A stretch of 64,000 nucleotides of DNA, taken from contig OY253681.1 in NCBI GenBank assembly GCA_958009085.1, positions 558,001-622,000 of the forward strand, in the 5' to 3' direction. Positions 375 to 43,890 of the stretch are shown piece after piece; position 1 is the stretch's first letter; each line of letters opens with the position of its first letter. The notes below the pieces were generated by a model, which saw only the letters and a program-made list of their open reading frames with translations, was not told where the DNA came from and did no database searches. The position numbers and the translations under genes are program-made. Origin of the DNA: Protoeuglena noctilucae (Eukaryota).

Positions 375-3300
375 TCATATCCACGGCATCCACCAGATGT
401 ACATGCCCCCCAGGTTGTCCTTGTCGACGGCTTCCTGGATGAGCCGGTGGACGTGCCCCTCCACGGACAGAGACAGGCTGGGTATGGATGCGACTCCAAT
501 GAGCGTGCCGTTGATACGGCCCTGGATCTGCCGCAGCGCATCGAGCGCAGCCGGGTTCTCCCCCTCCGCCGCCCTGCGTGCTGCGTCCTCCTCGGGCCGT
601 GGGGACTTGCTGCTCCTCCAGCTCCAGTCGACGAGCGGGTCGTGGACAAAGCTCTCCGCCACGGACATGACGGTGTCCCGGTTTGCGCGGAGGGCCGCCA
701 GCGTCATCTCGCACACCTTGCGATACGAGCCCTCCACGCCCGTCACCCCCATCGCGTCCACCACGTTCTGGGTCAGCCGGAACGGCACCAGCTCCGGCTT
801 CTCGAGCGTCAGGCCCTGCGGCAGTGGGCGTGTTGCGAGCCTGCTCACGGGCCGCCCGCTGCACACCTCTGCACATCTCCGTGCAGCCACCTGCGGCACG
901 CGTCTCCGGGCACTGTCCCCAGGCTCACCTTGTCGAAGAGACACCCGAAGTCGATCATGACGGCGTCGCCGGAGCTCGCGTCGATGAGGATGTTCTCGCC
1001 GTGGCGGTCCCCCAGTCCCACGACGTGGCCGACCATCGACCACACCGCAGTCGTGCACGTGAAGTTCTTCCGGGCTTGCAGCCACTTGGACGGCTCGAAG
1101 TAGCGGGAAATAAACCACCTGGGTGCAGATGCACAGCGTTCGGTCTCATGAAGAGCCTCGCAAAGCACGGCCGCACCGACGTGCATCTCAGCCACTCACT
1201 TGTGGAGGCGGGGAGGGAACCGGGACAATACCTCGTCCAGAATGTCTGACGACCTTTTCTTCGCTGCAATGCCCTTGTTGTAGATGTCCTGGACCTCCTC
1301 ATTTGTTTTCCTGGAGACGAGGGCAGCACAAGGAACAGCTTGGCGGCCTGCAGCACACATGTCAAGGCACCAGCAGTGCTTGCAGAGTCGGCTTCTCACC
1401 GCCCATCGTACATCCCATCGAGCACGTACACCTCCTGGCAGCAATTGCGGAAGCCGCTCGTCCGCTTCACCCACTCGACCAGCCCCGAGTCCTCGACCAG
1501 CGGCGCCACGTAGTAAGTCCGCATCTTCAGCGAGCGCTGCCTTGCGGCGGGATCTCTGGCAAACACGCGGTTCATGACCGACGCCATCTCCATCATCCTG
1601 TCGCACGGGGACGAGGCAGGAAGGCATATCGCAAGCTGAGAAGGTGTGGGGTTGGAAGAAGAAGAAGGCACGAAGAAGCCAATCATCGCCTCACCGTGTG
1701 TCCTTTCGAAGGTCGTCCTTTGGCTTCGCCAAGAACCAGTATTCCTCCCCGTCCGAGCCTCGCACGCGGATCTTCTTGGGGCGCATGAGCGATGCCAGCA
1801 ACTCAATCGCGTCCTCCACCCCGTGGAAGGACACGCTGACGGGGAAGGCCACGTGCTTGTCGTCCGCGGGAGGAGCGCTGTCGGGCGGGAGGACCAGGTT
1901 CATCGTCTGGCGAATGGGCAGGAGCACGCTGCACGGCAGAGCACGCTCGAACTCGGGGAGGTTGGCTCTGCGGGAAGAGGCGAAGGACTTCTCAGCGCTG
2001 GCGCAATCCAGGGCCACACGAGTTCCAGACGGTTTAGAGCTTACTTGAAGGACAGCGTTTTGACCGTCTTGGGTGCAGGCAGAGTGCAGAGTTGCTGCAG
2101 TCGGCTGTGCAGGACTTCAAACTCCGCGAATATGGACGGGGATGCTTGCCGGCGCTGGTCTGACTTGGCGCTCTGGAGGACCTCCAAGACGCGCTCTTTC
2201 CGCACCTCTGCGTAAAAGGACAAGCTAGGTGTGACGGACCGGCTGTGCCGAGTGTCTTGAAGTCATCGGACCCGCAGGCCATGACAATACGAATGACAAT
2301 GCGACTCACTTGACTGGGAGCGGACGCTGGAGGCTAGCATCCACAGAGCCTGGCCGGGATACTGCCGCGTGGCCCGCACGAGGATGGACTTCGCGACGCC
2401 GTAGATGTCCTGGTGCTGGTGGACGATGCGCGAGACGAGCTGAGGAAGGACGGACAGCCACAGGTACACAGGGACACCCTTCGCGTGTGTGCGGAGGGCC
2501 TTGACGACCTCGGTCACGTCGCTGCGCCGTTGCACCTTGCTGCGTGTCGCAAATGCGCGTGCATCTGCACCAGTAGACGGCTCAGCCTCGGCGGCTTGCG
2601 GGGACCCCGCGAGGAAGAAGACGGTGAGCATGCGTGGCAGTGCCTGGAAAGTAACTTCGGACCCAAACACAACAGCCTGGCAGTAGCTGCTAATGACGGC
2701 AGGCGCGTACTCGGCCCAAGGCCTCTCAAAGTGCACGCTGATCTTGGACTTGGAGCCGAAGCGCAGCCCCGCCTCAGGCACTCCGGCGTTCTGCAGCTGC
2801 CGCTGCCGCGCCCCCTCCATCAGAGCATCGGTGTACTTGGCCAGCTCAAAGTACGGCCGATGCCACGCTGGGCTCGCTTTTTTACTCTCGTCGAACAGGC
2901 CCATCACCTCTTCGTGACCGCCTTGGCCTGTCTCTGCCTTCCAGACGGCGAGATGCAACGCCACCTCGGCGCGCCCTCGCGCGGCTTCCGTGTCCTCTGC
3001 CATCGGTCGGGTGCTCCCCAGGGCATTTCCCGCGCGAATGTCAGCCAGAGCGTGCTCGAGAAGCTTGATAGCCCTGTCTGGGTGATCCCTGGCCCACATG
3101 AGCCTGGCGACTTCGACCACGGCTCCTGGAGCTTCCTCCCGCATGGCCTCCAGCGCGCATATGTCGGCCACCTCCAGATGCCTCGCCTCTCGGCAAGCGC
3201 GAGCCCGCTGCAAGCTGAGCTCGCCGGAGAGCCCGGGCACGCCGAGGAGACGTGCCATCTTTTCTCGAGCCTCGAGCACGGGCTCCTGCGTGGCCAAGGC

Positions 3301-6300
3301 CTGCTCCGTCAAGGCCAGCCGCAGGCCCCAGCGCAAAACGCCTTCAAGCTCCCTGCGCGACGGCTCCCGCCCCGGAACCAAGAACATCACAGCCGCCTCT
3401 TCCAGCTCTTGCAGCACATGGAGCCGCACCAGCAGCGGGTACGCCCGGCTGTACGACTCCATCGTCGCGGCGGATAGCGGCCGCATGACCTCTCTCCGTG
3501 CCGATGCGAGAACATCTGCCAGTCCCTCCGCATCCCCACGCCGTGCGGCAGACAGGATCTCCCCAACCTGTACCTCCCACCCCTCATCTGCACCGAGTCC
3601 AGACGTGCCACCCTTTCCCGCACGACCCGCCCCAGCATCCTCCAGGAACTCGTCAAGGTCGTCCCACTGCGCCATGCGCCATGCTGCAGCTGCTCCCCAG
3701 CTCGCAAGCTCCCTGGCGTTTCCCTGGCCCACCTCCCCGCACGCAGCGAGCCCGTTCACGTCGTGCAGCACTTGCTCCTGCTGCCCCAAGCGCAGCATGC
3801 ACCGCAGTTGGCCCCGCCGCAAGGGCCACATGTCCGCACCGGCCGCCCTCGCCGTGTGAGCCGCCTGACCATACAGCGCCAGGGCACGAGAGAAATGCCC
3901 GGTCTTCTCCGCAAGGAGTATCTGCAGGTCCAGAGACAGCGGGCCGCTCTGCAGCGCCTGCACGCCCGCCAGGCCATCAGGCTCGTCCAACGCAGCGTAC
4001 ACGCGCTGCAAGAAGGCGACATCGCCGGGCTCAAAGGTCGCCTGCACGAGAGCTGCAGGGTTCAGCCCTGTTCCGGCGTTGCCCCTCGTGCCACGCATGT
4101 GCCGCTCCAGGTACAAGAGGGCGCGCTCGTGCGCCCCGCACGCATAGCTTGCCCGAGCTAGGAGGCCCAGGTCCACGGACCTCAGCAAGTTCTCGAGCTC
4201 CTCGGCATCGCCAGGGGACAGGTCACCTGAAGCAGGGAAGGTTAGACTGCTACCGCTCCCTGAACGGCTCGCGCGGCGCTGCTCCAGCTGGCACATGTAC
4301 ACGTAACGCCCTATGGTGTCGAGAAGACCAAAGACGGCTTGCAGCGCCAGCGGGTCTACGGCATCCGGGCCCTGCTGGGCGTGAAGCAGAACAGCAACAA
4401 TCTCCTCGCGAATTCGGTCCGCTGCAGCTGTGCCCTTGGCGCCGCTCGCCACCACCTGGCAAGCCACGTGGTGCAAAGCATAAAGCATGAGCTGGACATC
4501 ATGGTGCAGCAGGCCGCGCAGAGCATCAAATGCGCTCTTCCACGGCCCCGGGTCTACAAAGTCCATGAGCTGGCGAATCCACGCGTGCAGCCAGGCCCGG
4601 AAGCTCAGGGTCGGCGAGAAAAGGACACCCTGATCGCTGGGGCGCGGGGCCTCGCCCCGGAATTTGGACTCTAGAAAGGGTCTGACTACCGGCTGGACGT
4701 CGGCCCGTAGGACATCAAACAGCTGCCTCTCGCCGGGCTCGTACTCGAGCTGCAGCAGGGTCTGCACCGCAAGCATCGCGTTGGACAGTACGGAAAGGCT
4801 GGGTGTGACGCGGAGGAGTCTCACCAAATGTTGTTCTGCCACGTCTTTGGCAAAGAAAAGGGGCCGCGTGTGCAGCACGAGATCTCGTGCCAGGCGAACG
4901 GGCAGGCGTGCGGGGTCGATGGCCCCCAGGACGCCCAGACACTCTGCGCATCGCAGCTGTATGCGTCGACCCATGTCACTGGGACTGTCAGCGCTGGCGC
5001 AAGCCAAGAGCCCCCGAACCAAACGAAAAATGGCTTCCCCAGGGTGCTTACGAGTCGCGCGACTGTTGCCGTCAGGCTTCCCGCCAGGCTGGGAGTCACC
5101 GACCACGAGATCGGTGGCGCTCGGAAGGGCCTCCAGCTGCCTCGCCACGGCAGCGGCAAAGGGCCCGGCGCCCCGCAAGTGGTGCAGCAGCTCACCCAGG
5201 CTCGCCAACCGGACGCTCTCTGCTTCGTGCTCCAGGCCTTCCGAAAGGAGGGCGACCTGCTCCATCGCTGTCAAGTTGCCACGTGCGTGGCTCAGAGTAG
5301 CGTTGACCTCGTCGAGGCCATCGACACTTGTGAGTGGCGGCAAGCGCTGGAGGGCCTCCTGCCCGACAGCAGCCCCATTATCGATGACAAGCCGATGCAT
5401 GACCCGAGCCGCCGCGTCCCGCGACGGTGACGTGTCGTCGAGTAATGGCAAGAGAACGACCACGATGTGGCTCGCCATACGCGCCAGCTCCGCTCGCGCA
5501 TGCGCAGCCAGAGTATCGACCAGCACCGCCCATGCACCAAGAGATGCGCTGCGCACAGCCGCACCCTGCAACGTCAACGCCCGCGTCAGGAGCGCCGAGA
5601 ACTGCGGCGCAACTTCCGTGACTTGGGCGCCGGCAAAGGAGACCAGCATGGCCATGACGCGAACAGCGCGCACGGTGTCTGCCGCCCCTGTGGGAGGGGC
5701 CCCAAGCGGTGCCAGGTTTCGCGGCACTCTCCCATCGCAGTAGTCACTGGCGTAATGCAGCATCTCCATGATGCGAGAGTCCTTCATCAAGAACTTCTGC
5801 GTCGTAGAAGGACACACCGGGAAGCATGAGGATCTGTGGGGGAAGTGCAAGCAGCTGTCTCATGCCTACTGAGGCCCACCTGGATGACGGCCATGTGCCC
5901 CTTCTTTTCGCCTTTCCTCCCCATAAGCTCTTCCTCGAGCATGTGGCAGAGGACGGGGGCCAGCGCTGCCCCGCAATCAGCCACCTCCTGGGCTGGCAGG
6001 GTCAGCTTGTTGGACAAAGCTTGGAAGGCGGGGTTATCAGCCACAAGCCAGAGCACTTCCCAAAAGAGCTTCGTCAGGCCGCCAGAAAGAAGCTCTGCGA
6101 AACGCGCGCGGTCCTCTCCCTCCCCAAGCCCCTCAATAAAGCTCAACGTCTCGCCGAGGCGCTCGGCACCGTCAGAGCGTCCGACCCGCTCGTACACCAG
6201 CCTCCCGATGGCCACGTGCAAGAAGTTCTGCACCAAAACCCACTCCGGATTGCTGCCCTCGTACCGCAGGTGCCACGCGAGGTGACGGAGGCTAGTCCTG

Positions 6301-15977: not shown

Positions 15978-18900
15978 TCAGCTTAGGTCGAATCCCGCCC
16001 CACTTCTGATGGCGTAGAGGAGCTTGTCCCGCATGATGGCAGTCGAGGGGTAGGGGGGCAGCTTCAGGAGGTTCATGCACGTGGCCGCCGTCGGGAGGCG
16101 GTGGACGGCGTCGCGGTCGCCCACGTGCCCGGCCATCTGGATGCCCATGCGCGGCTCCAAGTACCCGAATCCCAGCAGCGGCGGGCGGGAGCAGCTGGTG
16201 ACGAACTTGAGCAGCAGGCCCTGCTCGTGGGGCGTGAAGGAGGACAGCGCTTCCCAGAAGTTGTGGATGATGGGGTGGTCGTCCGCGTACCCCGCCCCAT
16301 AGACCACTGCGGCGGGGGAGGCACGGGACATGACTCACTCGCACCGGCCTCGTCTCTGCCCGCCATTTCACGCTCTGTCTCTTCACTCACCGTGCCTGCG
16401 GAGGTCCTCCACGGCCCACCCGCCGTCCGTCTCGACGCCGCTGATGAGCATCTGGATCTCTTGCCCCGCGAACATTGAGATCCACCGCGAGTCGATGACC
16501 TCGAAGAAGCCCCCCAGCAGCGCCTCGCACTCCCTGCGGCACTGCACGTTGAGCTTCCAGTGCGCCATCAGGTGGACGTACCGCACGACGTTGTCGTTCG
16601 TCACGGGCACCTCGCGCCCGTTCGGCACGAGGTCCACGACGCGCTTCTCGCCCTGGGCGTCCACCTCGACGCTGAACGTCAGGCTCAGCTCCTCCACGTC
16701 CCCCGTCAGGCGGTACTCTTGCAGGAAGGCCAGGTTGCGGTGCAGCTCCGGGTCGAGCGACGGGAGGTCCTCCAGGTCGCACACCTCACCCCTGCGGCAA
16801 AGCCCACAAGCCATGCGAGGCGCCAACAGGCACGGGCAAAGCAGCACAAAGGGCCAGCAAGCCGAGCGCAGTCGCGTGGCGGCTGCCCCCGCCCCCGCCC
16901 CTCACCGGAATTTCTTAAGCAGGAACCCGGCTAGCGGCAGCTCCATGAGGATGCCCTCGTACACGGCCTTCCCCAGCATGCGACCGAGGAAGGACAGCAG
17001 CCGGAAGTGGTTCCCCGGCTCCCAGCCGCTCGACCCCGAGAAGGCCGGGTACACGCGGTGGTCGGCGGTGGAGGAGAAGAGGCCCGCGTCCGGCTGCAGC
17101 GCGGCCTTCATGAGGCCTTCCAGGAAGTCCTTGAACAGCCCGCCCCCGTCCACGCCCGCCTCCTCCAGCCCGTGCTGGTCCACAAACATCACGCGGAGCT
17201 GGCGCTTGAGGCCCTCCCCCGAGAGGTTGAGACCCGCGAAAGCATCCGCGATCAGGTGGTCCCGACGCACCCGCACGAACCGCCCGTCGCCCATGGGCCC
17301 CGCCCACCCGCGCCGGTGGCGCTCTCGGTCGTGCCGCACCACCTCGCTGAAGGCCAGCGCGCGCTCCATGAACGCGACCAGGTACGGCGCCACCCTCAGG
17401 AGCTTCCACACCCGGCCGCCCCCCGCGCCATGCCGGGGCACGCCGCGCCCGTCCAGCGCCGAGCCCCCGGCCTCTGCCGACCGCGGCATGCCCGCCCATC
17501 GCCCCTGCTGGACCCCCTCTGCGGCCGCAACCAGGGGCGTCCAAGCCAGCGACGCGTCCCCCGCGAGGCCCTGCCCCGACGGCCCCACCCCCTCGTCGTC
17601 CGAATCGTCGTAGCTGTCGGCGTTGGCGATGGCCACTGCGTCACGCACCAGCGCCTCCCCAGGGATCTGCCCCGTGTGGAACGCCGCCTGGGGCGCGAGC
17701 GGCTCGCGCAGGTGCCGCGAGTAGAGCTGCGCGTACAGCCGGCCGCAGGCGCCCTGCGCAGCCGCCCGGAGGCACTGCGGGGCGCCCTCGACGCCCGTCG
17801 ACGGCGCAGACGGCTCGGACCACAGGAGCCGCGTCAGGGCGTCTCTCAGCATGGGCACCAGCCCCCGCTGCGCCCGGAGCCCCTCCCTGCCCGGCATCTC
17901 CGAGAAGAGGTCGGCGGGGGCCAGGGGCTTGCCACGCACGCGCAGGTCCTGCTCGCTGCACACGATGAGGCCGATGCTGAAGACGTGCGAGAGGAGCGTG
18001 AGCGGGAGCAGGTCCCCGGGGTCGCCCCGCGCACGAGCGAGGGGTTGCGCTGCGGCCTCGTGCCAGGCGGAGGGGTGGCACTGGCAAGGGCGCAGGTAGT
18101 GCCCCCACAGCGCAGGGACAAGGTTGGTAGAGAAGGCCAGCGTGCGGAGCACGTTCCCACGCGCGGGGTCCTGCCGGGCCCATGCGAACAGCAGCGCCTG
18201 CAGGAAGGGGCGGGTAGAGCTTTCACACGATGTTCGCAAGGCAACACATTGATTACCGGCAACACCACACATTCGCCACTCGCCTCACACAAATGCTGCA
18301 CGGCCTGATGGTCGGCACGCGGCAGGTCCGAGCCCTCAGCGGCCAGGTCGGCGCACGTGGCCATCCACCCAGGCCACAGGCAGACCTGGATCAACGGCTT
18401 CAGCAGGCCGGGCTGGTCGAGGTCGGATATGGCGGCCCCCACGGCGCCCCCGTCATCGCCCGGCCCCTTCTGCAAAGCCGCCACCTCCAGCGTCACCAAC
18501 GCATTGCACAGCCTGGCGCCCGCACGGACGGACACGGCGACGAGCTCGCTGTGCGCTGCGCTGTCCTCCGCGAGGTCCATTGACGAGCGCGCCAGGGACC
18601 CCGTGCGCTGCACGACCCGGGCGCGGCGGCTCTGCAGGTCGCGAATAGACTCGGCCAGCCGAGCGTGCACGTGCGGCAAGGCCACGGCCGACAGCGCGAG
18701 CAGGTTGCGCAGCACGACCCGCGGCGTGCCACCATCAGCCCGCAGCGGCGCCGGGGACCCCAGAAGCGCCACCCACAGATCCACCGACGCCTCGGATCTC
18801 AAAGCGGGGCAGACGTCCAGCAGGCGAGGCACGCGCAAGAGGCCCATGAGGGATTCCACGGCGACCCCCCTCTCGGCTGCTGCGGGAGGGAGAACCTTGC

Positions 18901-26600: not shown

Positions 26601-29600
26601 CCTGCTCGACCAGACGCGACTCCTGGGCCAGTCGCTGCGCCAGGGCGGCGTCCAGGCCCTCGGGCGGGGTAGCGCCCTGGGCCAGCGCCAGCATGGGCAT
26701 GAGGCGGCCGAAGGTGGCGGAGGCGTAGGCGCGCATGTCGGGTTCGGGGTCGGACATGCGCGCGAGGAGGGGGGTGAGTAGCAGGGGGCTGTACGGCACC
26801 AGGTGCTGCGACGAGGCTGCCAGTAACGCGGTCAGACCCACGCCCCCACGGCGCGCGGCGGCGCTCGTCATGTCCGACATGACCGCAGGGATGGCCGCCA
26901 GGAGGTACGGGAGGACTAGGCGCGGGTGGCTGTCCGTGAGGGCCGCCAGGGCAGACGCCGCCGTGTCTCGCACGACCTGCGGCCAGCGTCCATCGACAGG
27001 CCAGGGTGGGTCGCCTGCACATCTGGAGTATCTATGATCGCCGCGCTTCTCCACGCACCTGCATCTCGTGCTTCAGGCACCGCAGGGCCTGGCCAAGCGT
27101 GGGCAGTGACCCCTGGACCAGCGCTGCACTGAGCGCGGCTGCCACGACGCGGAGGAGGTGCAGGGCGTCGAGGAGCGGCTGGACGGGGCCTGCGATGTGG
27201 GCGAACGGGGTAGGAGCGTGGCGGGACCAGCAGGGAGTGTGTGCGTGAGTGGTGTTGCTGCGCTGCTGACCCTCGCACCTGCCAAGAGGTCCTCAGGCGA
27301 CCGGCCTGGCGCAAGAGGACCCGTCAGACGCTCCCAGAGCGGGCTAGCGTGGATCGGCAGCTCGGCACCGAAGCGAGTGCACAGGGCACGCAGGGCCTCC
27401 TGGTCCCCCGACTTGGACCGCCACTGCCCGCCTGTCCCTGCGTCGATGCGACAACACCCTGTCGATGCATGCTGACAGCAATCGCAGCTTCAAATTCCCA
27501 AGTGGAGCTTCTTGCCAGCTCGCGCCCCTCACCTGCCGACGCTTCGCCGTTCGCGTCGCTCCCCTCCACGGCGTCGCCCTCCTGCGTGCCAGCCGGCGCC
27601 CCGGCTCGTGGCGCCTGCGTGGCTGTGCACGCCAGCTCGCAGACGTTGGCGATGATCTTCGCGTTGGGGCTCTTGGGCCGCGTGGAGCACTGGCTGACGA
27701 GCACCGCCAGTGCAAACGCCACATGCAACGCGAGCGTGGGGTCCGGCTCCCGGCGCACGGATGCCATCAGGGGCTGCGGACAGGTGGTGACCAGGTTGCC
27801 ATTCGAGCTTACGTGCTGCACCCCAACGCACAAGCTGGAACAGAGAGATCCACCCTCGCACACAGCCTGCTGACGCAGTACATCTGGTGCCCATGCCCCA
27901 CGCCGCTTCCTCGCCTGGATCAACGCATTGAGCTTCACGGGGAGCTCCCCGGCCACGACTGCTGCCGCTGCCAGCATCCCCGCCGCAGACACCGCCTGTG
28001 ACTCCAGCGCCGCGGCTGCCGTGCGTGCCGTGCCCAGCACCCGGTCCCACACGCGCACCGCCTGGGCCGCGGATGCTGCGCGGTCGCCGCCGGAGCTGGC
28101 CAGCGAGGCCAGGGAGGCGGGCGGCCCCGGCTCCAGGACTCGGAGCGCCAGCCGCGGATCAGGGGCGGCCAAGTCCAGCCCTTCCACCAGCGCCATGGGA
28201 CACCCCAGGGACTGGCACAGCCCGGACAAGGCCTGCATCTCCATCGACAGCACGCGAGTGTGCCCCTGGAGCTCCGGGCACAGCCCCCAAGGCCCAGACA
28301 CAGCGGCGAGGACGGCCGAGTGCATGGCGCCCACCTCCGGGACGTCCGCCAGGGTCCCCGAGGGACGCGAGCGTGCCCAGATCGTCTGCGCAGGCACAAA
28401 CCAGAACAAGCTTTCCATATTTGGTCGAACAACACAGGGAGGGCGCTCGGCGACGCTCCGACCCCTCACCAGCAGCAGGGACGCTGCAATCTTGGGGCTC
28501 CATGCTGCCCCCCTCAGCGCACCCCCCACGGTCGACGCCACCGCTTCCCGCAGAACCCTCTCCTCCCCCGGACAGCCCCCCGCATCCGCCATCGCCACGA
28601 TCGCCTCCGCCACCGCCACCGCCGCCTCCATCGGGGCGCGGGCCCCAGAGCCCACCTCAAAGCCACGCCCGCAGCGCCCCATGCTACCCGAGCAGGCGAG
28701 GAAAGACTCGGCCAGGTCCTGCCCTACCACGGACCCTCGCGGCAGGGACATGAGCCCGAGCCACCGGGGCAAGCGCTTTGCCACGTCCGCGGGCGCCCCC
28801 GCCGTAATGCTGACGGCACCCGCTAGGGCAGGCACTGTGCCTGCCGCAGCACGCACCACCTCCGCCTCTTGCTCCGTCGTCAACACCTGCACAAGTGCCT
28901 GGCCGATGGTACCGAGGACCCCCGGCAGCCACCGCTTCGTGACAGCGCTGCCAGGCGCGACGGGGCGCTCCAGCAGGCCCCTGAGGCACGACAGGGCGGC
29001 CAAGCGGACGGAGACGATGTGATGGAAGCAGAAGGGAAGCGTGCGGGGCAAGAGGGACGCGCGGTCCAGCTCCGGCACGTGGCCGAACGCGTGCATGTCG
29101 CCGAGGGCCATCATGGCGCTGGCTGGGAAGGAGTTGAGCTCGTCCTCTATCGCCAGGGCTCGCTCGAGCTGCGGAGAGAGCGCGGAGGCAAGTGCTCATG
29201 CGGAATGGTGGCGACCCCTTGTGGGTCTGGTCAGCCGTCCAGCAGGCGCTCACCGCTGCCACCACGCGCTTCAGGTATCCCGCGGCCCTCGGCCGGAACA
29301 AAGCTGGCAGGACCGGCTTCAGGCACTGCGCCGCCACCGCCTGACACATGTCCGGGTCCCGCTCCAGCCCTGCAGCCACCGCCCCCAGCACCGCATCTAC
29401 CGCGGATGCCATCCCGTCAGCCGGCGGGCCACCCCCGCCCTGACCCGCGAAGCCCTCTTCTGCCTTCACAGCACCCTGGCCGTCCCCCACCGGCCCGCTT
29501 GCGCCCGTGTCCGCGCTTAGGAGCGCAGCCTGCACGGCTGCTCCCACGTACTTGATCCCCAGCAGGCCCCCGTGCTGCGTCTCCCAGCCCTCGCTGACAC

Positions 29601-38906: not shown

Positions 38907-39353
38907 AAGCCGCGCCGGCTAAAAGAGGCGGACAAAATCGATACACGGGTCACTGGCGCAGGAACCTGCGGCAGTCTTTCCGAGGCAGCAAGCCCCGGGA
39001 CGAGCGCGGCAAACAAGGGGTGGGACATATGCAGTCGCTGTGTGACGGCGCATGCGACAGGGCATTGCGAGTCACTGCAGCGCGCAGGGTTGGGCATGCA
39101 AAAGCAAAATGGCGCGGGGTCACGTGTCGCAACTTTTGCAAGATGGATGTGAACACACTGCGGCTCATCAAGCGAGAACCGCGCCTGCGCCTCCCGTAAC
39201 AAGTGGAGTCGACGACAGCGGTTCCGCGGAGGCGCGGCCCCGGCGGCCATGCGACCGTGGCCGTCACTGCTGACGTCCGCGGGCCACCTGGCCCCCGGCA
39301 GAGGCCTGGGCCCAGCGCCTCCCGCAGGCCGCCGCTCATCTCGGCGTCTTATC

Positions 39354-41461
39354 TCACTTCCTGCGGTGCTTGACGAGCATGGAGCCCAGGACGGCCGAGT
39401 CGAAGGGCGTGCCGAAGCTGGGCCCCGTGATGAAGTCGTCCGTGCCCAGCATGGCCCGCTGGTCCGCCGAGGAGGAGAAGGCGACCGAGGCGACGCCGTA
39501 GTTGCGGATGGTGGTCACCAGGTTGGGGTACTGCTGCGCCAGGGTCGGCTGCACCAGCACCATGTCCACCTTGGGGCCGTTCTGGCGGAAGTAGTCCAGG
39601 CACTGCACGGCCTCCTCGTCGGAGCGGATGATCTCGACCTGGATCTGGCTCCGCAGCTTGTTCAGCTCCTTCACGAAGAAGTTGCCCAGCTCCTCGTCCG
39701 CCGTGGCCACCACCACCAGGGCCGTGGCGGGCAGGTCGCCCATCGGGTTGCCGCGCGCGCTGCCCTTGCCGCGCAGGCTGCCCCGGATTTTGCTCTTCCA
39801 CCCGGCCTCAAGGTTGCCACCCGCGCGGTCGTCCTCGAGCTGCGGGTGCGGGGGCCAGGTGTCGAGGGGTCACGACGCGACACAGGCAGCACATCATGAC
39901 GAAACGAGGCGCCACGCCTGGCAGACCCCATCGCGGCACGCGACCGCCCCCGCCACCGAGCCTGCCGCGAGACTCACGTCGAGGGACGTGCGGGTCTTGA
40001 TGCCCTTGGACTTGAGCTGCCGGGCCAGGCGCTCGATCGACCGCCGGCGCGTGGTCAGGGCACGCGTGGAGTGCGTGACAGCCTCCTTGTCGTTCTCGTC
40101 GGCGAGCACCTGCAGGGCGAGGGAGGGGCGAGGTGAGACGAGGCGGCGCTCGTGACGCCACAGGCGTGGGCCTCGGCGACGCGACGCAGAGACCGCCGGC
40201 CTGGGGGGCACCGCGGCGCCGCCAGTCACCGTGAGCTCCCGCTCCTGGCCCAGGATGACGGTCTTGACGCGCTTGGTGTGGTGGCCGTTCATGACCACGT
40301 GCGTGTGGACCAGGTAGCGCAGGTACCAGGCGAACATGCCCCAGATGTTCTTGGAGATGAAGTCGATGATGGCGTGGGCGATGAGGTCGCCGTAGCGGTC
40401 GAGGTGCCCGAAGCCCGTGGGCCCGAACACGAACATGACGGGGAAGAGGGGCCAGGAGAGGAAGTAGGCCCAGGTGAGGAACTTGACGCCCCTCTGGCAG
40501 ATGCCCTGGGGGACGATGTAGTACGCCTCGATGTAGACCTGGGCGGCGTTGTAGAAGGTGTTGATGCCGAAGAGGGCCCCGACGCAGAAGAAGAAGATCT
40601 TGAGGCCGCCCCGGGAGAAGGCTGCCAGGATGCCAAACATGATGGTGCCCTGGTCGGACGTGAGGAGGACCATGGTGCGCTCGTTATACTCCTCGTTGAG
40701 GCCCGTCACGTTGGACAAGTGGATGAGCAGCACCGGGCACGTCAGCAGCCACTCCGTGTAGCGGAGCAGCACCACCGACTGGCCGTCCGCCACGTAGATC
40801 TTGAAGGGGACCGATTCGGCGAAGAAGACGTCCACGATGTAGTAGATACTCTCGATGAAGGCCACCCACAGCACCTCCCACCCGCAGGTGGCGTAGTAGT
40901 ACTGGGGGCGACGACGGGGCGGGCGTTCCGCGTGCATAGCTGGTCATGGGGGGAGAGGGGGCGTCCGCCGACACGCGTGACAATGCGGGCGGAAGTCAAC
41001 GCTGCCGGGACTCGCCTGGTACGCGAACCAGACGAAGCAGGCGAAGGACGCGATGAAGCAGAACCACGTGAGGACCTTGGCAGCCGTGTGCTCGTTCTCG
41101 GTCCCCGGCTTCATGTAGCTAATCTTGCAAGTGTTCGGCTGGTAATTCTCGACCTCGTAGCCCATCTCCTTGCAAGAGACCGGGCACGTGCAAACCCACT
41201 CGTCCTGCCTCTCGATGGACTTCATGTACTCCTCGTACAGCGTCGCCGAGAGGTTCGCCTGGGACGGAGCAGGCCGCGAAGAGGTCAGGAGCACGGATCA
41301 GGGGGCTAGAGCCAGGCGCGCCCTCGCGGAACCCCGCCACACACCTCAAGATATGCCTGGCCCTCGTCGGTGACGCCGCCAATCGTCTCGCCGAGGGTCG
41401 CCGCGCACAGCACCGCCATGATGGCTGCTAGAAGCAGCACAAACACCCTTCTCCCTCTCAT
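39354..41461 (-). CDS. Channelrhodopsin (signal peptide, 7TM rhodopsin, C-terminal receiver-like domain), 5 exons, 549 aa
   Basis: Exons 41461-41345, 41258-41016, 40901-40230, 40109-39978, 39839-39354 splice in frame. Motifs TCGWE, LRYTEWLLTCPVLLIHLSNVTGL, SDQGTI, YIEAYYIVPQGIC, SWPLFP, retinal Lys in AHAIIDFISKNIWG, and C-terminal GPSFG. Confidence 0.96.
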
Positions 41462-42236
41462 CCTCCCTGCAGACGTTGAGAGGAGCCGGGGGAGCGTTAA
41501 CAGGCTATCACATGCACTCTGCCGCCCCGACTGCGCGTCGACCGCCGAGTCTCCGCGAGCAGTCATCGTCATTCGAAATGAGGCCGCATGTCAAGCGCAG
41601 GAGGCTGCCTCTGCGCTGCGCGAGCAGCCAGAAGTGGGGTCGAGCCGACAGCGCCGCGATCAAGGTCCCGCGGTCCCTCTGCACTCCGATAGCTCACGAC
41701 AAACAGGGCGGCGCAATCGATGCCCGCCCCCGCCGACAAGACGAGCGGCCGGCGCGGGGCGAGTGTGCCCTAGGAGTCAACGGCCGCCCAGGCCTGGAGT
41801 AGCCGCCGTTGCGGTCCCCTTCAGTCACGCTGTGCTCATATTAGCCGTTCGTGGTTCCGAGTGCCGATGCGGACGCCAGCGCGAACGGCAGGGCGTGGAA
41901 TTCGGGCCCCCGATAGCAACTCCGGACCGCGTCCCGAAAAAGGCGAACGGAAGGGTGTGAGAGGTCGCTTAGCATCAATTGGTCCACCTAGAGTCAGAAT
42001 CGGTGCCGCAGAATGTCGCCCGACGCTCACCTGCCTCGATGTCTCGCTCGGCGTCTTCCCCCGAGTCTGCGCGGCGACGAAGCCCCGCCCTTTGCTCCGG
42101 ATGTCGCTTCTCGGTCCCAGCAACTCAGGCACGTCACGGCGGCGCAGGAGCTCAAGGCAGCAACTCTGAACTCAGGCACGCACTTGAAGCTGACGTCGAG
42201 CCGTCAGAACCTACCCCCGACCGGACCTGAGGCGAC

Positions 42237-43890
42237 CTAGCGACTCGGCGCTATAGCTACTGGTTGCGGCGGTCGAGCCGCGGCGACACGCTCAGGCGGC
42301 CACCCGAACACGGACCCGAAGAGGAAGTGCTGCACCACGGGGAGCTTGGCCAACACCTCGGCTTGGTACATCTTCATCATGCCCACGTTGACCTGTGCCG
42401 CAAGCGACGGACTGCAGTGATGTCTCGACACGCAATGCAATTGATTTCACCCCGCCAGACGGTCACCACATGCGCCTTTGACTCGCCTTCGACCATGACA
42501 CCACGCCGGAGATGTCGTTCAGCATCGGGGATGTCTCCGCCAGGGGACCCTTCTTCACGCTCTTGACGAACGCCACGCATCCTGCGCCGGCGACGGAGGT
42601 GGACGATGCAGCACCCAGAGAGAGCTCCATCAGCCCCCATGCAAAGGCAAGTGACGCGCACCGAAGTACAGGTACTCGGAACTGAACTCCTCGAGGTAGC
42701 GCTCGTTGTGGATGGAAGAGGGCTGGAGGAGCGGGTGGTCGACGAGCTGAGCCGCACCCCAGAAGAACGGGAGGAACTGGTAGTCGTCCAGTCCCCACAC
42801 TGCGGGGGTGCAGCCGTTTGCGCGCGTCGCAGCGCCTGTGCCCTCGACTCCTGCCGAGACTATCGCAGCCAGCATGGCCAACTGCCCTGTCGCCGCCCCT
42901 TACGCACCTCCCTGGGACCCCGCAGGCTCCAGCCAGTAGGTCGTCTGGATGCGCCGCACCAGATCCAAGTACCGCTTGAACACGCGCAACACCAGCGCTT
43001 TTCGGTCCGCATCCGTCACCACGCCAAGCTTGGCCAGGCAGAAGAGGAGAGCGGCAAGGTTCGTCTCGTGGCCAGTGCCGTAGTCAATTCGCGTCGCGTT
43101 GCCAAAAGACTCCACCAGGTACGGGGCCAGCTCGACCGCGGCGCCCTTCCATGTCTCGGGAAGCACCTCTTCTGCAGCCGACGTATGCGACAGGGTGCTT
43201 TGCCCGCTGCTTTAGACAGGACCTGCTCGGCCCAGCGAGCGCAAGCCTCGCACCCAACATGGACTCCGCCCTGCTCTCAATAGCAGCGTACAGCTTCCGG
43301 AAAGCCGGGTTGCCGTAGCGCATCGCCTGGGCCGCCGGCGGCACCTCGCTGACCATGGCGTCGATGCGGTCCAGCATGCGAAGGAGGGCCTGCAGGGGTG
43401 GAGCGGCGCTCTCAGCGGACGCACCACCAGGCCTGATGCACCCGCTTGACGGAGTCGAAACCAACCTGGCAGGAGTCGGATACGAATGCTTGAGCGGAGA
43501 GGGTCTGGCCTTTCACAGCCTCGTTCAGGCTCATCAAGAAGGCCACGAACTCTCTCGCGGCGTCCGAACGTAGGAACGCCTCCATGTCTTGCTGCGACGT
43601 GATGTGCCGAGACGCGGGCTGCAGGGGACGGGCGAGGGAGTGCGTAACCGTATCCACCGGCGGGTTCGCCGCCGCGAAGCGCCCGCGCCGGTCCCCAGTC
43701 AGACCTGCCACACTCGACCGTCCACGTGCATCAGGGGGGCTGGCATGGCCGGGTTGGCTTTGATCAGGTACGGCGCGGGGCGCCGGGCCGCGCTCGACGC
43801 GAAGTTGGTGGCCTGATTGGCTGCGCCCGAGTGCCCCACGCCCGTCTGGTCCCCTCTTGCGAGAGCCCAGGGGGCCTTGGTGGGCTCCAT
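42237..43890 (-). CDS. PTPA: PP2A phosphatase activator (PTPA/RRD)
   Basis: [87 protein letters not shown]. Confidence 0.95.

What the first reader, a model, noticed from the sequence alone, without database searches (positions are those of the whole stretch)
40280..41095. Channelrhodopsin with an unusual pore and counter-ion residue set
Seen, by manual gap-free alignment to Chlamydomonas ChR2 numbering (reference recalled from memory). Retained: S63, E82, E90, R120, E123, T127, C128, H134, D156, D253, K257, N258, R268. Changed: Q56T, Y70F, E83V, K93Y, E97D, E101A, E235T, V242R, S245D, T246L, T250A, H265W. Established: an aromatic residue at the K93 position occurs in red-shifted ChRs (Chrimson, CaChR1) and alters counter-ion protonation. 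E83, E101 and V242 positions are among those changed in engineered anion-selective ChRs, while natural anion ChRs usually lack a carboxylate at E123. Inference: probably a cation/proton channel with shifted spectrum and altered inner gate, and possibly a new optogenetic tool. Selectivity cannot be settled from sequence.
Basis: partly seen in the sequence, partly recalled or inferred. Interest (0 to 1): 0.75.

Follow-up and report, generated by a model that had tools for sequence, protein, structure and literature searches.

The report
Expressed green-algal channelrhodopsin, uncharacterised marine clade
This is an intact, transcribed gene for a light-gated ion channel (channelrhodopsin) of a marine green alga; it belongs to the well-known ChR1/ChR2 family but sits in a small untested branch whose outer pore is built differently, so it is worth a patch-clamp test but is not a new kind of protein.

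Summary
A five-exon gene on the minus strand (coding 41461..39354, 549 aa) encodes a chlorophyte-type channelrhodopsin. Its TM2-TM7 exon aligns without gaps to C1C2 (E 2.6e-73) and ChR2.

Marine metatranscriptome contigs from two studies match the exons exactly and skip all four introns, including a GC-AG one. The gene is therefore expressed and the model is shown.

The closest relatives are unnamed environmental sequences at 63-65% identity. The closest named one is from Pedinophyceae sp. YPF-701 (55%), and ChR2 is at about 48%. No match was found in the 2021 catalogue of known ChRs.

Several "unusual" residues are lineage-typical: V83 in 38 of 52 relatives, W265 in 31 of 59, and F70 in 13 of 50. 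The real clade signature is Y93, D97, no Glu101, no Glu235, Arg/Lys242, Asp245 and no Glu273.

Both counter-ions, the DC pair, the central gate and a ChR2-like retinal pocket are kept.

Most likely it is a cation/proton channel for photoreception with a remodelled extracellular gate. It is a new member of a known kind, of moderate interest.

The parts
42031..42120 (-). 5' UTR exon (its upstream end is not determined)
   Evidence: RNA contigs of runs X1 and X2 leave the window at 41470, with 25 and 86 further letters. The first 25 letters match the window once, at 42035..42059. The junction is ambiguous by 4 nt.
41467..42030 (-). Intron in the 5' UTR (564 nt, GT..AG if the 4-nt ambiguity is resolved that way)
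   Evidence: and the sequence. The exact boundary is inferred.
41345..41461 (-). Coding exon 1 (39 aa): start codon and a hydrophobic signal-peptide-like leader
   Evidence: Translation, hydropathy segment 1-32, and RNA contigs covering 41344..41470.
41259..41344 (-). Intron 1 (86 nt, GT..AG)
   Evidence: The joint 'skips 86' is seen in X1, X2 and X5 and not in DNA run X8.
41016..41258 (-). Coding exon 2 (81 aa): Cys-rich extracellular N-terminal region and TM1 (T56, S63, F70)
   Evidence: Cysteines lie at model residues 62, 64, 68 and 83.
40902..41015 (-). Intron 2 (114 nt, GC..AG non-canonical donor)
   Evidence: GCGAGTCC...CAG. The joint 'skips 114, ends CT..GC' on the + strand is seen in X1, X2 and X5.
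40230..40901 (-). Coding exon 3 (224 aa = P0001): TM2-TM7. Holds the Schiff-base Lys (codon 40352..40350), Y93 (codon 40844..40842), E123, C128, D156 and D253.
40110..40229 (-). Intron 3 (120 nt, GT..AG)
   Evidence: The joint 'skips 120' is seen in X1, X2 and X5.
39978..40109 (-). Coding exon 4 (44 aa): cytoplasmic linker, conserved with P0003, P0004 and P0026
39840..39977 (-). Intron 4 (138 nt, GT..AG)
   Evidence: The joint 'skips 138' is seen in X1 and X2. No X5 contig bridges it.
39354..39839 (-). Coding exon 5 (161 aa plus stop TGA at 39356..39354). The receiver-like (CheY-fold) domain lies at about 39728..39357. The protein ends directly after it, with no coiled-coil tail.
   Evidence: AlphaFold2 mean pLDDT 84.6. 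The listed Foldseek PDB hits are almost all response-regulator receiver domains. RNA contigs are unspliced across 39200..39839. The end matches P0004.
39200..39353 (-). 3' UTR (runs on below 39200; the contig lengths imply roughly 270 nt more)
   Evidence: X1 and X2 contigs cover down to the edge of the laid stretch. The extension is inferred.

Best explanation
The gene encodes a functional, expressed member of the green-algal (ChR1/ChR2-type) channelrhodopsin family. The source organism is a GC-rich marine green alga whose ChR is closest to those of pedinophytes.

Proposed mechanism, inferred by homology: retinal is bound to the TM7 lysine (K257 in ChR2 numbering). Both counter-ions (E123, D253), R120, the DC pair C128/D156 and the central gate S63-E90-N258 are kept. 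Light-driven isomerisation therefore opens a pore between TM1, 2, 3 and 7 that conducts protons and small cations. The resulting membrane depolarisation serves photoreception or phototaxis.

The extracellular half of the pore differs from CrChR2:
- The CrChR2 extracellular-gate triad Glu101-Gln117-Thr246 is replaced by Ala-Val-Leu.
- Glu235 (Chrimson Glu277, toward which the conserved arginine, ChR2 R120, is oriented) is Thr.
- A new Asp245 sits where Chrimson has Asn287, which hydrogen-bonds that arginine.
- Arg242 is added.
- Lys93 is replaced by Tyr, which may shield the counter-ion complex and raise the pKa of E123.

I expect a cation/proton channel with a ChR2-like retinal pocket, and therefore blue-to-green absorption, possibly shifted somewhat to the red and pH-dependent. 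The C-terminal Asp-less receiver-like domain probably serves targeting or regulation, not phosphorelay.
For: Shown:
- Family membership and a gap-free alignment.
- All core photochemical residues are kept.
- Transcription and exact splicing of four introns in RNA contigs from two marine metatranscriptome studies, with 0 differing letters. X1 and X2 (one study) show all four joints; X5 (the second study) shows three. A DNA run holds the unspliced form.
- The clade signature is shared by P0003, P0004 and P0026 at 63-65% identity: Y93, D97, no Glu235, Lys/Arg242, Asp245, no Glu273. That argues for constraint.
- A quick ML tree puts the protein with P0003/P0004 (SH-aLRT 99), then with the Pedinophyceae sp. 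YPF-701 protein (95), inside a 25-row clade (98) that also holds the ChR2 row (P0036).
- Over 20 pore-lining positions that I chose, the protein has 8 acidic and 3 basic residues against 9 and 3 in ChR2. The pore therefore stays electronegative.
- 22 of 26 retinal-pocket positions equal ChR2. The list of pocket positions is recalled.
- The receiver fold of the C-terminal domain.

From papers (passages read):
- The roles of K93/F135, and that Chrimson F135Y gives a smaller blue shift than F135A or F135K.
- The CrChR2 extracellular gate E101-Q117-T246, and the Chrimson R162-N287-E277 network.
- RR-like domains of green-algal ChRs lack the phospho-acceptor Asp.
Against: - No function was measured.
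- The only tested protein in the wider neighbourhood of the tree, Pedinomonas minor KF992066 (= P0027, 49-51% identical; same 25-row clade, placement unresolved), is listed as tested and not functional in the 2021 catalogue. Members of this neighbourhood may conduct poorly, at least in HEK cells.
- Four carboxylates of ChR2 are lost (E83, E101, E235, E273). Position 242 carries the same Arg that was engineered into the anion channel iC++.
- Selectivity is known to depend on wider context.
- The proposed R120-D245 contact and the effect of Y93 on E123 are inferred from alignment only. No coordinates were examined.
- The tree is the quick search; the careful one did not finish.
Confidence: 0.78

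Rival explanations
1. It is a low-efficiency or essentially non-conducting sensory rhodopsin. It would bind retinal and photocycle, but give only small or intramolecular charge-transfer currents, and signal mainly through its cytoplasmic domain or partners.
For: - The Pedinomonas minor homologue tested by Klapoetke et al. is listed as non-functional.
- Several chlorophyte homologues gave no channel currents or only transfer currents.
- Loss of the helix-2 lysine has been linked to low-efficiency ChRs (recalled: Li et al. 2014, Biophys J; not found in the library).
Against: - All gate and counter-ion residues needed for conduction in ChR2 are present.
- Chrimson also lacks K93 and conducts well.
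- Failure in HEK cells is often an expression or trafficking problem.
Confidence: 0.14
2. It is a natural light-gated anion channel that arose inside the cation-channel family.
For: E83V, E101A, V242R and E273T fall on four of the positions changed in the engineered anion channel iC++. V242R is the identical change (iC++ rows against C1C2 rows).
Against: - E90, E123, N258 and D253 are kept, and the acidic residues D97, E102, D241 and D245 are present. The pore set stays at 8 acidic to 3 basic.
- Prasinophyte ACRs keep only the Glu82 homologue.
- Natural ACRs mostly lack the counter-ion carboxylate.
- Prasinophyte proteins with an ACR-like Glu pattern were still cation selective.
Confidence: 0.06
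3. It is a decaying or unexpressed gene copy, and the unusual residues reflect relaxed constraint.
For: None found.
Against: - The reading frame is open across five exons.
- The spliced mRNA is seen in RNA contigs of two studies.
- The same residue signature occurs in three distinct relatives at 63-65% identity.
Confidence: 0.01

Closest known systems
Chlamydomonas reinhardtii channelrhodopsin-2 and the C1C2 chimera (PDB 6eid, 3ug9)
   Same: - The 7TM fold aligns gap-free from ChR2 residue 45 to 300.
- Kept residues: K257, E123/D253, R120, C128/D156, S63/E90/N258, H134, R268, E82.
- The retinal pocket is nearly identical.
- A Cys-containing extracellular N-terminus is present.
- A cytoplasmic receiver-like (con2) domain is present.
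   Different: - Identity is only 113 of 241 over ChR2 residues 50-290.
- K93Y.
- The extracellular-gate triad E101/Q117/T246 is replaced by A/V/L.
- E235T, V242R, S245D, E273T, E83V, H265W, Y70F.
- There is no C-terminal coiled-coil tail after the receiver-like domain.
Pedinophyte channelrhodopsins: Pedinophyceae sp. YPF-701 CAG9467467.1 (P0034) and Pedinomonas minor KF992066 and 1KP_RRSV_2003374
   Same: - P0034 is the nearest named relative, at 55-56% over TM2-7.
- P0034 is sister to the window's clade in the quick tree.
- The WYLRY-type motif of TM7 (W265) is shared.
- Y93-Y94 is shared with P0034 and with the 1KP sequence.
- The receiver-like domain is shared.
   Different: - The pedinophyte proteins keep Glu97, Glu235 and Ser245, and have no basic residue at 242.
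- P0034 has Ser at E123 and His at R268.
- P0034 and P0005 carry a coiled-coil-like tail that this protein lacks.
- KF992066 has Lys93 and is listed as non-functional.
Unnamed marine relatives P0003, P0004/P0175 (also locus L001) and P0026
   Same: - Same small clade, at 63-65% over TM2-7 and 59.6% over 510 columns for P0004.
- Same signature: V83, Y93, D97, no Glu235, Lys242, Asp245, W265, 'MNGHHTKRV' after TM7.
- Same short C-terminus.
- Similar GC content (65% in L001).
   Different: - Position 101 is His (P0003/P0004) or Ala (P0026).
- Lys and not Arg at 242.
- Asn and not Asp at 241.
- L001 encodes its protein without introns.
- None has a name or any functional data.
Chrimson (CnChR1, PDB 5zih) and CaChR1
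   Same: The helix-2 lysine is replaced by an aromatic residue next to the counter-ion complex.
   Different: - Tyr and not Phe at that position.
- Chrimson also changes H134K, S63A and N258E and about half of the retinal pocket. All of these are ChR2-like here.
- The match to 5zih is weaker (E 1.8e-52).

Membership tests
Green-algal (chlorophyte) cation channelrhodopsins, ChR1/ChR2 type | Microbial-rhodopsin 7TM domain with the retinal Schiff-base lysine in TM7 | tested here: met
   Pfam Bac_rhodopsin E 2.3e-36. K257 is aligned and is invariant in 59 of 59 relatives.
Green-algal (chlorophyte) cation channelrhodopsins, ChR1/ChR2 type | Carboxylate counter-ions at the E123 and D253 positions, plus R120 | tested here: met
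   E123, D253 and R120 are all present.
Green-algal (chlorophyte) cation channelrhodopsins, ChR1/ChR2 type | TM3 'TCP' motif and the DC pair C128/D156 | tested here: met
   T127, C128 and D156 are present, with P129 in 'LLTCPV'.
Green-algal (chlorophyte) cation channelrhodopsins, ChR1/ChR2 type | Five carboxylates in TM2 and the TM2-TM3 loop (E82, E83, E90, E97, E101), as stated for most chlorophyte CCRs | tested here: inconclusive
   Three of five positions carry a carboxylate (E82, E90, D97); V83 and A101 do not. V83 is the majority state among the relatives examined, 38 of 52. The feature describes Chlorophyceae better than it describes the whole family.
Green-algal (chlorophyte) cation channelrhodopsins, ChR1/ChR2 type | Placement inside the green-algal CCR clade in a phylogeny | tested here: met
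   Quick ML tree of 52 rows. The protein lies in a 25-row clade (SH-aLRT 98) that also holds the ChR2 row (P0036), next to the pedinophyte protein P0034 (95). The careful search did not finish.
Green-algal (chlorophyte) cation channelrhodopsins, ChR1/ChR2 type | Cytoplasmic C-terminal extension with a receiver-like (con2) domain that lacks the phospho-acceptor Asp | tested here: met
   The model has pLDDT 84.6 and a beta-alpha pattern. The listed Foldseek hits are almost all receiver domains, best E 3.2e-05. That Gln follows strand 3 where CheY has Asp57 is inferred from strand positions. Pfam itself finds nothing.
Green-algal (chlorophyte) cation channelrhodopsins, ChR1/ChR2 type | Light-gated passive cation conductance | not testable with these tools
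   Needs electrophysiology.
Natural anion channelrhodopsins (cryptophyte or prasinophyte type) | Non-carboxylate residue at the E123 counter-ion position, with most TM2 glutamates absent | tested here: not met
   E123, E82, E90 and D97 are present. The definition comes from passages read.
Chrimson-like red-shifted CCRs | Phe at K93 together with S63A, H134K, N258E and a remodelled retinal pocket | tested here: not met
   Only the aromatic at position 93 (Tyr) is shared. S63, H134, N258, D156, T159 and G163 are as in ChR2.

The most novel reading that the evidence does not exclude
This protein and its three marine relatives may form a distinct functional sub-type of green-algal channelrhodopsin. 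In it the CrChR2 extracellular gate (E101-Q117-T246) and the Glu235 partner of Arg120 have been replaced together. The replacement would be a Tyr93 lid over the counter-ions plus a new Arg/Lys242-Asp245 pair. That could give an outer gate, and hence a selectivity (for example strong proton preference), pH-dependent colour or kinetics, not seen in the ChR2, Chrimson or Tetraselmis types. If so, it would show how nature uses the same V242R change that engineers used to make iC++ without losing the cation-type counter-ion pair.
Probability: 0.25. Interest if true: 0.6.

Novelty: new member of a known kind. Interest (0 to 1): 0.4.

Why it matters
Channelrhodopsins are the main tools of optogenetics, and natural variants have repeatedly given new colours, speeds and selectivities. 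This one comes from a barely sampled marine branch: in 5.8 billion clustered proteins I found only three distinct relatives above 60% identity. It is demonstrably expressed in the sea.

It combines an intact ChR2-like photochemical core with a rebuilt extracellular vestibule. That makes it a natural experiment on what Lys93, the E101-Q117-T246 gate and Glu235 contribute. It also adds a verified gene model, including a GC-AG intron and a 5' UTR intron, for a photoreceptor of a poorly known green alga.

It is not a new class of protein, and its usefulness as a tool is untested.

Tried and rejected
- The window's own genome is not held, so paralogues elsewhere could not be sought. A tblastn of four ChRs against the window found only this gene.
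- Earlier notes of this scan: none for this place, sequence or topic that bears on it.
- Pfam finds no family in exon 2 or in the C-terminal domain, even at E up to 10. The receiver fold came only from structure prediction.
- Rfam finds nothing in the window at gathering scores.
- The first scan of metagenome contigs, with the single protein, found no relative. 26 pattern matches were made and none was confirmed. The second scan, with the clade alignment, found one locus, L001.
- Catalogue check. Exact motifs of this protein and of P0004 were absent from the six supplementary files of Govorunova et al. 2021. Cells there are cut at 400 characters, but the three motifs that lie early in the sequences fall well within that; the two TM7 motifs ('IIDFISKNIWG', 'AIIDMLSKNLWG') lie later and could be cut in long rows. 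The supplements of the 2022 review could not be read. Supplements of the bioRxiv paper of Rozenberg et al. are closed, so its larger catalogue was not checked. The protein could be listed there or in later catalogues.
- Li et al. 2014 on the helix-2 lysine was not in the searchable library. It is cited from recall only.
- A search for papers on pedinophyte channelrhodopsins found only the 2022 review.
- Taxonomic placement through the neighbouring ATR-kinase exon was uninformative. The nearest named proteins are Viridiplantae at 30-33%, and unnamed ones are at 42-47%.
- The careful maximum-likelihood search did not finish in the time allowed, so the quick tree is reported.
- RNA contigs give no expression level, transcript start or strand. 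Bins without cover (the introns) count only where a contig joins across them.
- I did not fold the 7TM domain, because the tools return no coordinates and the fold is not in doubt.
Full report
WHAT IS THERE

The window is GC-rich throughout, at 63-74%, and its genes are split by short introns. On the minus strand between about 42.1 kb and 39.2 kb lies one gene. I modelled it by eye from the sequence and the ORF list and checked it by script.

- The model has five coding exons: 41461..41345, 41258..41016, 40901..40230, 40109..39978 and 39839..39354.
- Together they make 1650 nt, that is 549 codons plus a stop.
- The introns are 86, 114, 120 and 138 nt. Three are GT-AG. Intron 2 is GC-AG.

IS IT REAL AND EXPRESSED

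The model is directly confirmed by RNA. Seven RNA-labelled public runs hold part of the stretch, and six of them hold about half to three quarters of its sampled words. I laid four runs.

- X1 and X2 are marine metatranscriptomes of one study. Single contigs of 2086 and 2172 nt match all five exons with 0 differing letters and skip exactly 138, 120, 114 and 86 nt. The 114-nt skip shows CT..GC ends on the plus strand, which is GC..AG on the gene's strand.
- X5 is a second marine study. It shows three of the four joints, and no contig bridges the fourth.
- X8 is a DNA run and possibly the source of the assembly. One 68.9-kb contig holds the whole stretch with no joints.

The RNA contigs leave the window at 41470 and continue with letters that match 42035..42059. 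A 564-nt intron therefore lies in the 5' UTR, with a boundary ambiguous by 4 nt. The contigs run unspliced through the stop codon at 39354, so the short C-terminus is real. Contigs cannot give expression level or strand.

FAMILY

- The TM2-TM7 exon (P0001, 224 aa) matches Pfam Bac_rhodopsin at 2.3e-36.
- In the PDB it matches C1C2 (3ug9, 2.6e-73), ChR2 (6eid, 1.3e-71), iC++ (4e-72), Chrimson (1.8e-52) and KnChR (7.8e-51). The C1C2, ChR2, iC++ and Chrimson matches span query 3-222 against equally long target ranges, and the three alignments printed (C1C2 and iC++) have no gaps. Kalium, anion and pump rhodopsins are far weaker.
- TM1 aligns to C1C2 with one gap before the helix.
- An exhaustive HMMER pass over 1.84 billion representatives gave 398 hits at E<=0.001 and 39 at E<=1e-30.

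RESIDUE CHECK

P0036 is named 'channel rhodopsin 2 [synthetic construct]' by NCBI nr. Q117V and E273T should be added to the list.

HOW UNUSUAL IS THE SET

I tabulated 59 relatives. These are proteins P0003-P0065 of at least 200 aa. I left out the window's own ORF (P0025) and two near-duplicates (P0175, P0176). They are cluster representatives and not a full catalogue.

Common states, typical of non-chlorophycean chlorophyte ChRs:
- V83 in 38 of 52.
- W265 in 31 of 59.
- F70 in 13 of 50.

Rare states:
- Y93 in 5 of 55 (the three clade members and two pedinophyte-type proteins; Lys in 29).
- D97 in 6 of 56.
- A101 in 2 of 56.
- T56 in 1 of 48.
- V117 in 3 of 57.
- T235 in 1 of 59 (Glu in 54).
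- R242 in 0 of 59 (Lys in 3, all clade members).
- D245 in 3 of 59 (all clade members).
- L246 in 1 of 59.
- T273 in 0 of 57 (Glu in 25).

The distinctive part is therefore the extracellular vestibule plus E273. It is not the inner gate, and it is not the counter-ion pair, which is unchanged. The signature is shared with P0003, P0004 and P0026.

RELATIVES

- The closest proteins are P0026 (65%, a 31-kb Logan contig) and P0003/P0004 (63-64%, JGI), none of them named.
- P0175, a 90%-cluster mate of P0004, is encoded without introns on metagenome locus L001, which has 65% GC.
- Next come P0034 (55%, 'unnamed protein product [Pedinophyceae sp. YPF-701]') and P0005 (54%).
- Tetraselmis-type proteins are near 50% and ChR2 is at 48-49%. 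Over ChR2 residues 50-290 the identity to ChR2 is 113 of 241.
- The full-length model is 59.6% identical to P0004 over 510 columns and 44.4% to P0034 over 513.

I built a quick maximum-likelihood tree of 52 rows. Eight rows with fewer than 215 residues in the region were dropped: P0005, P0026, P0028, P0040, P0045, P0053, P0057 and P0062. P0175 and P0176 were removed as near-duplicates. The tree joins the window's protein with P0003/P0004 (SH-aLRT 99) and then with P0034 (95), inside a 25-row clade (98). That clade also holds P0027 and the Tetraselmis-labelled (P0007, P0008), [Myrmecia] (P0037), Tetrabaena (P0039) and ChR2 (P0036) rows. The careful search did not finish.

In the catalogue of known ChRs in Govorunova et al. 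2021 (Data Set S1), none of four motifs of this protein or two of P0004 occurs. The TM7 motif WYLRY occurs only in two Pedinomonas minor ChRs and two labyrinthulean ACRs. One of the P. minor proteins, KF992066, has the same leading residues as P0027. It is listed as tested and not functional.

The neighbouring ATR-kinase exon has no close named relative. Viridiplantae proteins are at 30-33%. The organism is therefore a poorly sampled green alga. A pedinophyte affinity is only suggested by the ChR tree.

MECHANISM

Kept residues:
- the Schiff-base Lys, both counter-ions and R120;
- the DC pair;
- the central gate S63/E90/N258;
- H134, E82 and R268;
- 22 of 26 retinal-pocket positions. The four differences are C87A, I131L, L182A and F219Y. 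The list of pocket positions is from my recall.

This predicts normal ChR photochemistry with blue-to-green absorption.

From passages I read:
- In C1C2 and ChR2, Lys93 stabilises the ionised Glu123. In Chrimson, Phe135 at that position shields the counter-ion complex and stabilises protonated Glu165. Chrimson F135Y blue-shifts less than F135A or F135K.
- In CrChR2 the extracellular gate is the hydrogen-bonded triad Glu101-Gln117-Thr246. Here all three are replaced, by Ala, Val and Leu.
- In Chrimson, Arg162 (ChR2 R120) is held by Asn287 and faces Glu277. By the constant offset of 42 residues these are ChR2 positions 245 and 235. Here position 245 is Asp and position 235 is Thr.

I infer that Asp245 takes over as partner of Arg120, with Arg242 and Asp241 nearby, and that Tyr93 lies over the counter-ions. 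This is alignment-based inference, and I inspected no coordinates.

SELECTIVITY

Comparing the iC++ and C1C2 rows shows E83N, E90Q, E101S, V117R, E123S, V242R, T246N, N258Q and E273S. The natural protein shares the direction of change at 83, 101, 242 (identical Arg) and 273. It keeps E90, E123 and N258 and adds D241, D245 and E102. Over 20 pore positions of my choosing it has 8 acidic and 3 basic residues, against 9 and 3 in ChR2.

Prasinophyte ChRs with an ACR-like glutamate pattern are still cation selective. I therefore expect a cation/proton channel. I put an anion channel at about 6% and a poorly conducting sensor at about 14%.

C-TERMINUS

Exon 5 gave no Pfam match. With a 14-row alignment, AlphaFold2 gives mean pLDDT 84.6 and an alternating strand-helix pattern. 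Foldseek finds at least 161 PDB matches at E<=0.001, and the listed ones are almost all response-regulator receiver domains. The best is 8phx_D at 3.2e-05, and target TM-scores reach 0.75.

Strand 3 (residues 93-96 of the exon) is followed by Gln where receivers carry the phospho-acceptor Asp. This is inferred from strand positions. It fits the description by Rozenberg et al. of Asp-less receiver-like (con2) domains in green-algal ChRs, possibly a trafficking signal.

Unlike P0034, P0005 and ChR2-type proteins, this protein and P0004 stop right after that domain.

VERDICT

The gene is an expressed, intact member of the green-algal channelrhodopsin family, from a small, functionally untested marine clade with a rebuilt extracellular gate. 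I class it as a new member of a known kind. It is of moderate interest, mainly as a candidate for electrophysiology.

Noticed in passing
window 40902..41015 (minus strand): Intron 2 of the channelrhodopsin gene uses a non-canonical GC donor (GCGAGT...CAG). Its removal is confirmed by RNA contigs of three runs from two studies.
   Followed up: yes
window 41441..41600 and beyond: A separate, lower-depth RNA contig in run X1 (619 nt, depth 8.9) runs unspliced from 41441 into the 5' UTR intron region. It could be an intron-retaining or alternative-start transcript, or antisense RNA. Contigs cannot tell the strand.
   Followed up: no
window 2263..5850 (minus strand): A 1195-codon open exon encodes the UME, M-HEAT, FAT and HEAT parts of an ATR-type checkpoint kinase. 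The nearest named proteins are Viridiplantae at only 30-33% identity, and unnamed environmental ones are at 42-47%. The source alga therefore has no closely related annotated genome in that collection.
   Followed up: partly
window about 42630..43470 (minus strand): The gene directly upstream of the channelrhodopsin encodes a phosphotyrosyl phosphatase activator (PTPA, Pfam E 8.3e-33 for one exon).
   Followed up: no
window 16902..18272 and 27324..29114 (minus strand): Exon-sized ORFs with the start of a HECT ubiquitin-ligase domain (E 2e-06) and a DUF3535 segment (E 6.4e-14). These look like ordinary eukaryotic housekeeping genes.
   Followed up: no
L001 1258..2766: The closest environmental relative (P0175, 60% identical to the full-length model) is encoded on a 6.3-kb contig of the metagenome collection without any intron, although the window's gene has four in its coding region. 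Either that contig derives from RNA or that organism's gene is intronless.
   Followed up: partly
P0034 (Pedinophyceae sp. YPF-701 protein): The nearest named relative has Ser at the Glu123 counter-ion position and His at Arg268 while keeping Tyr93. It would be an interesting comparison partner for the role of Tyr93.
   Followed up: no
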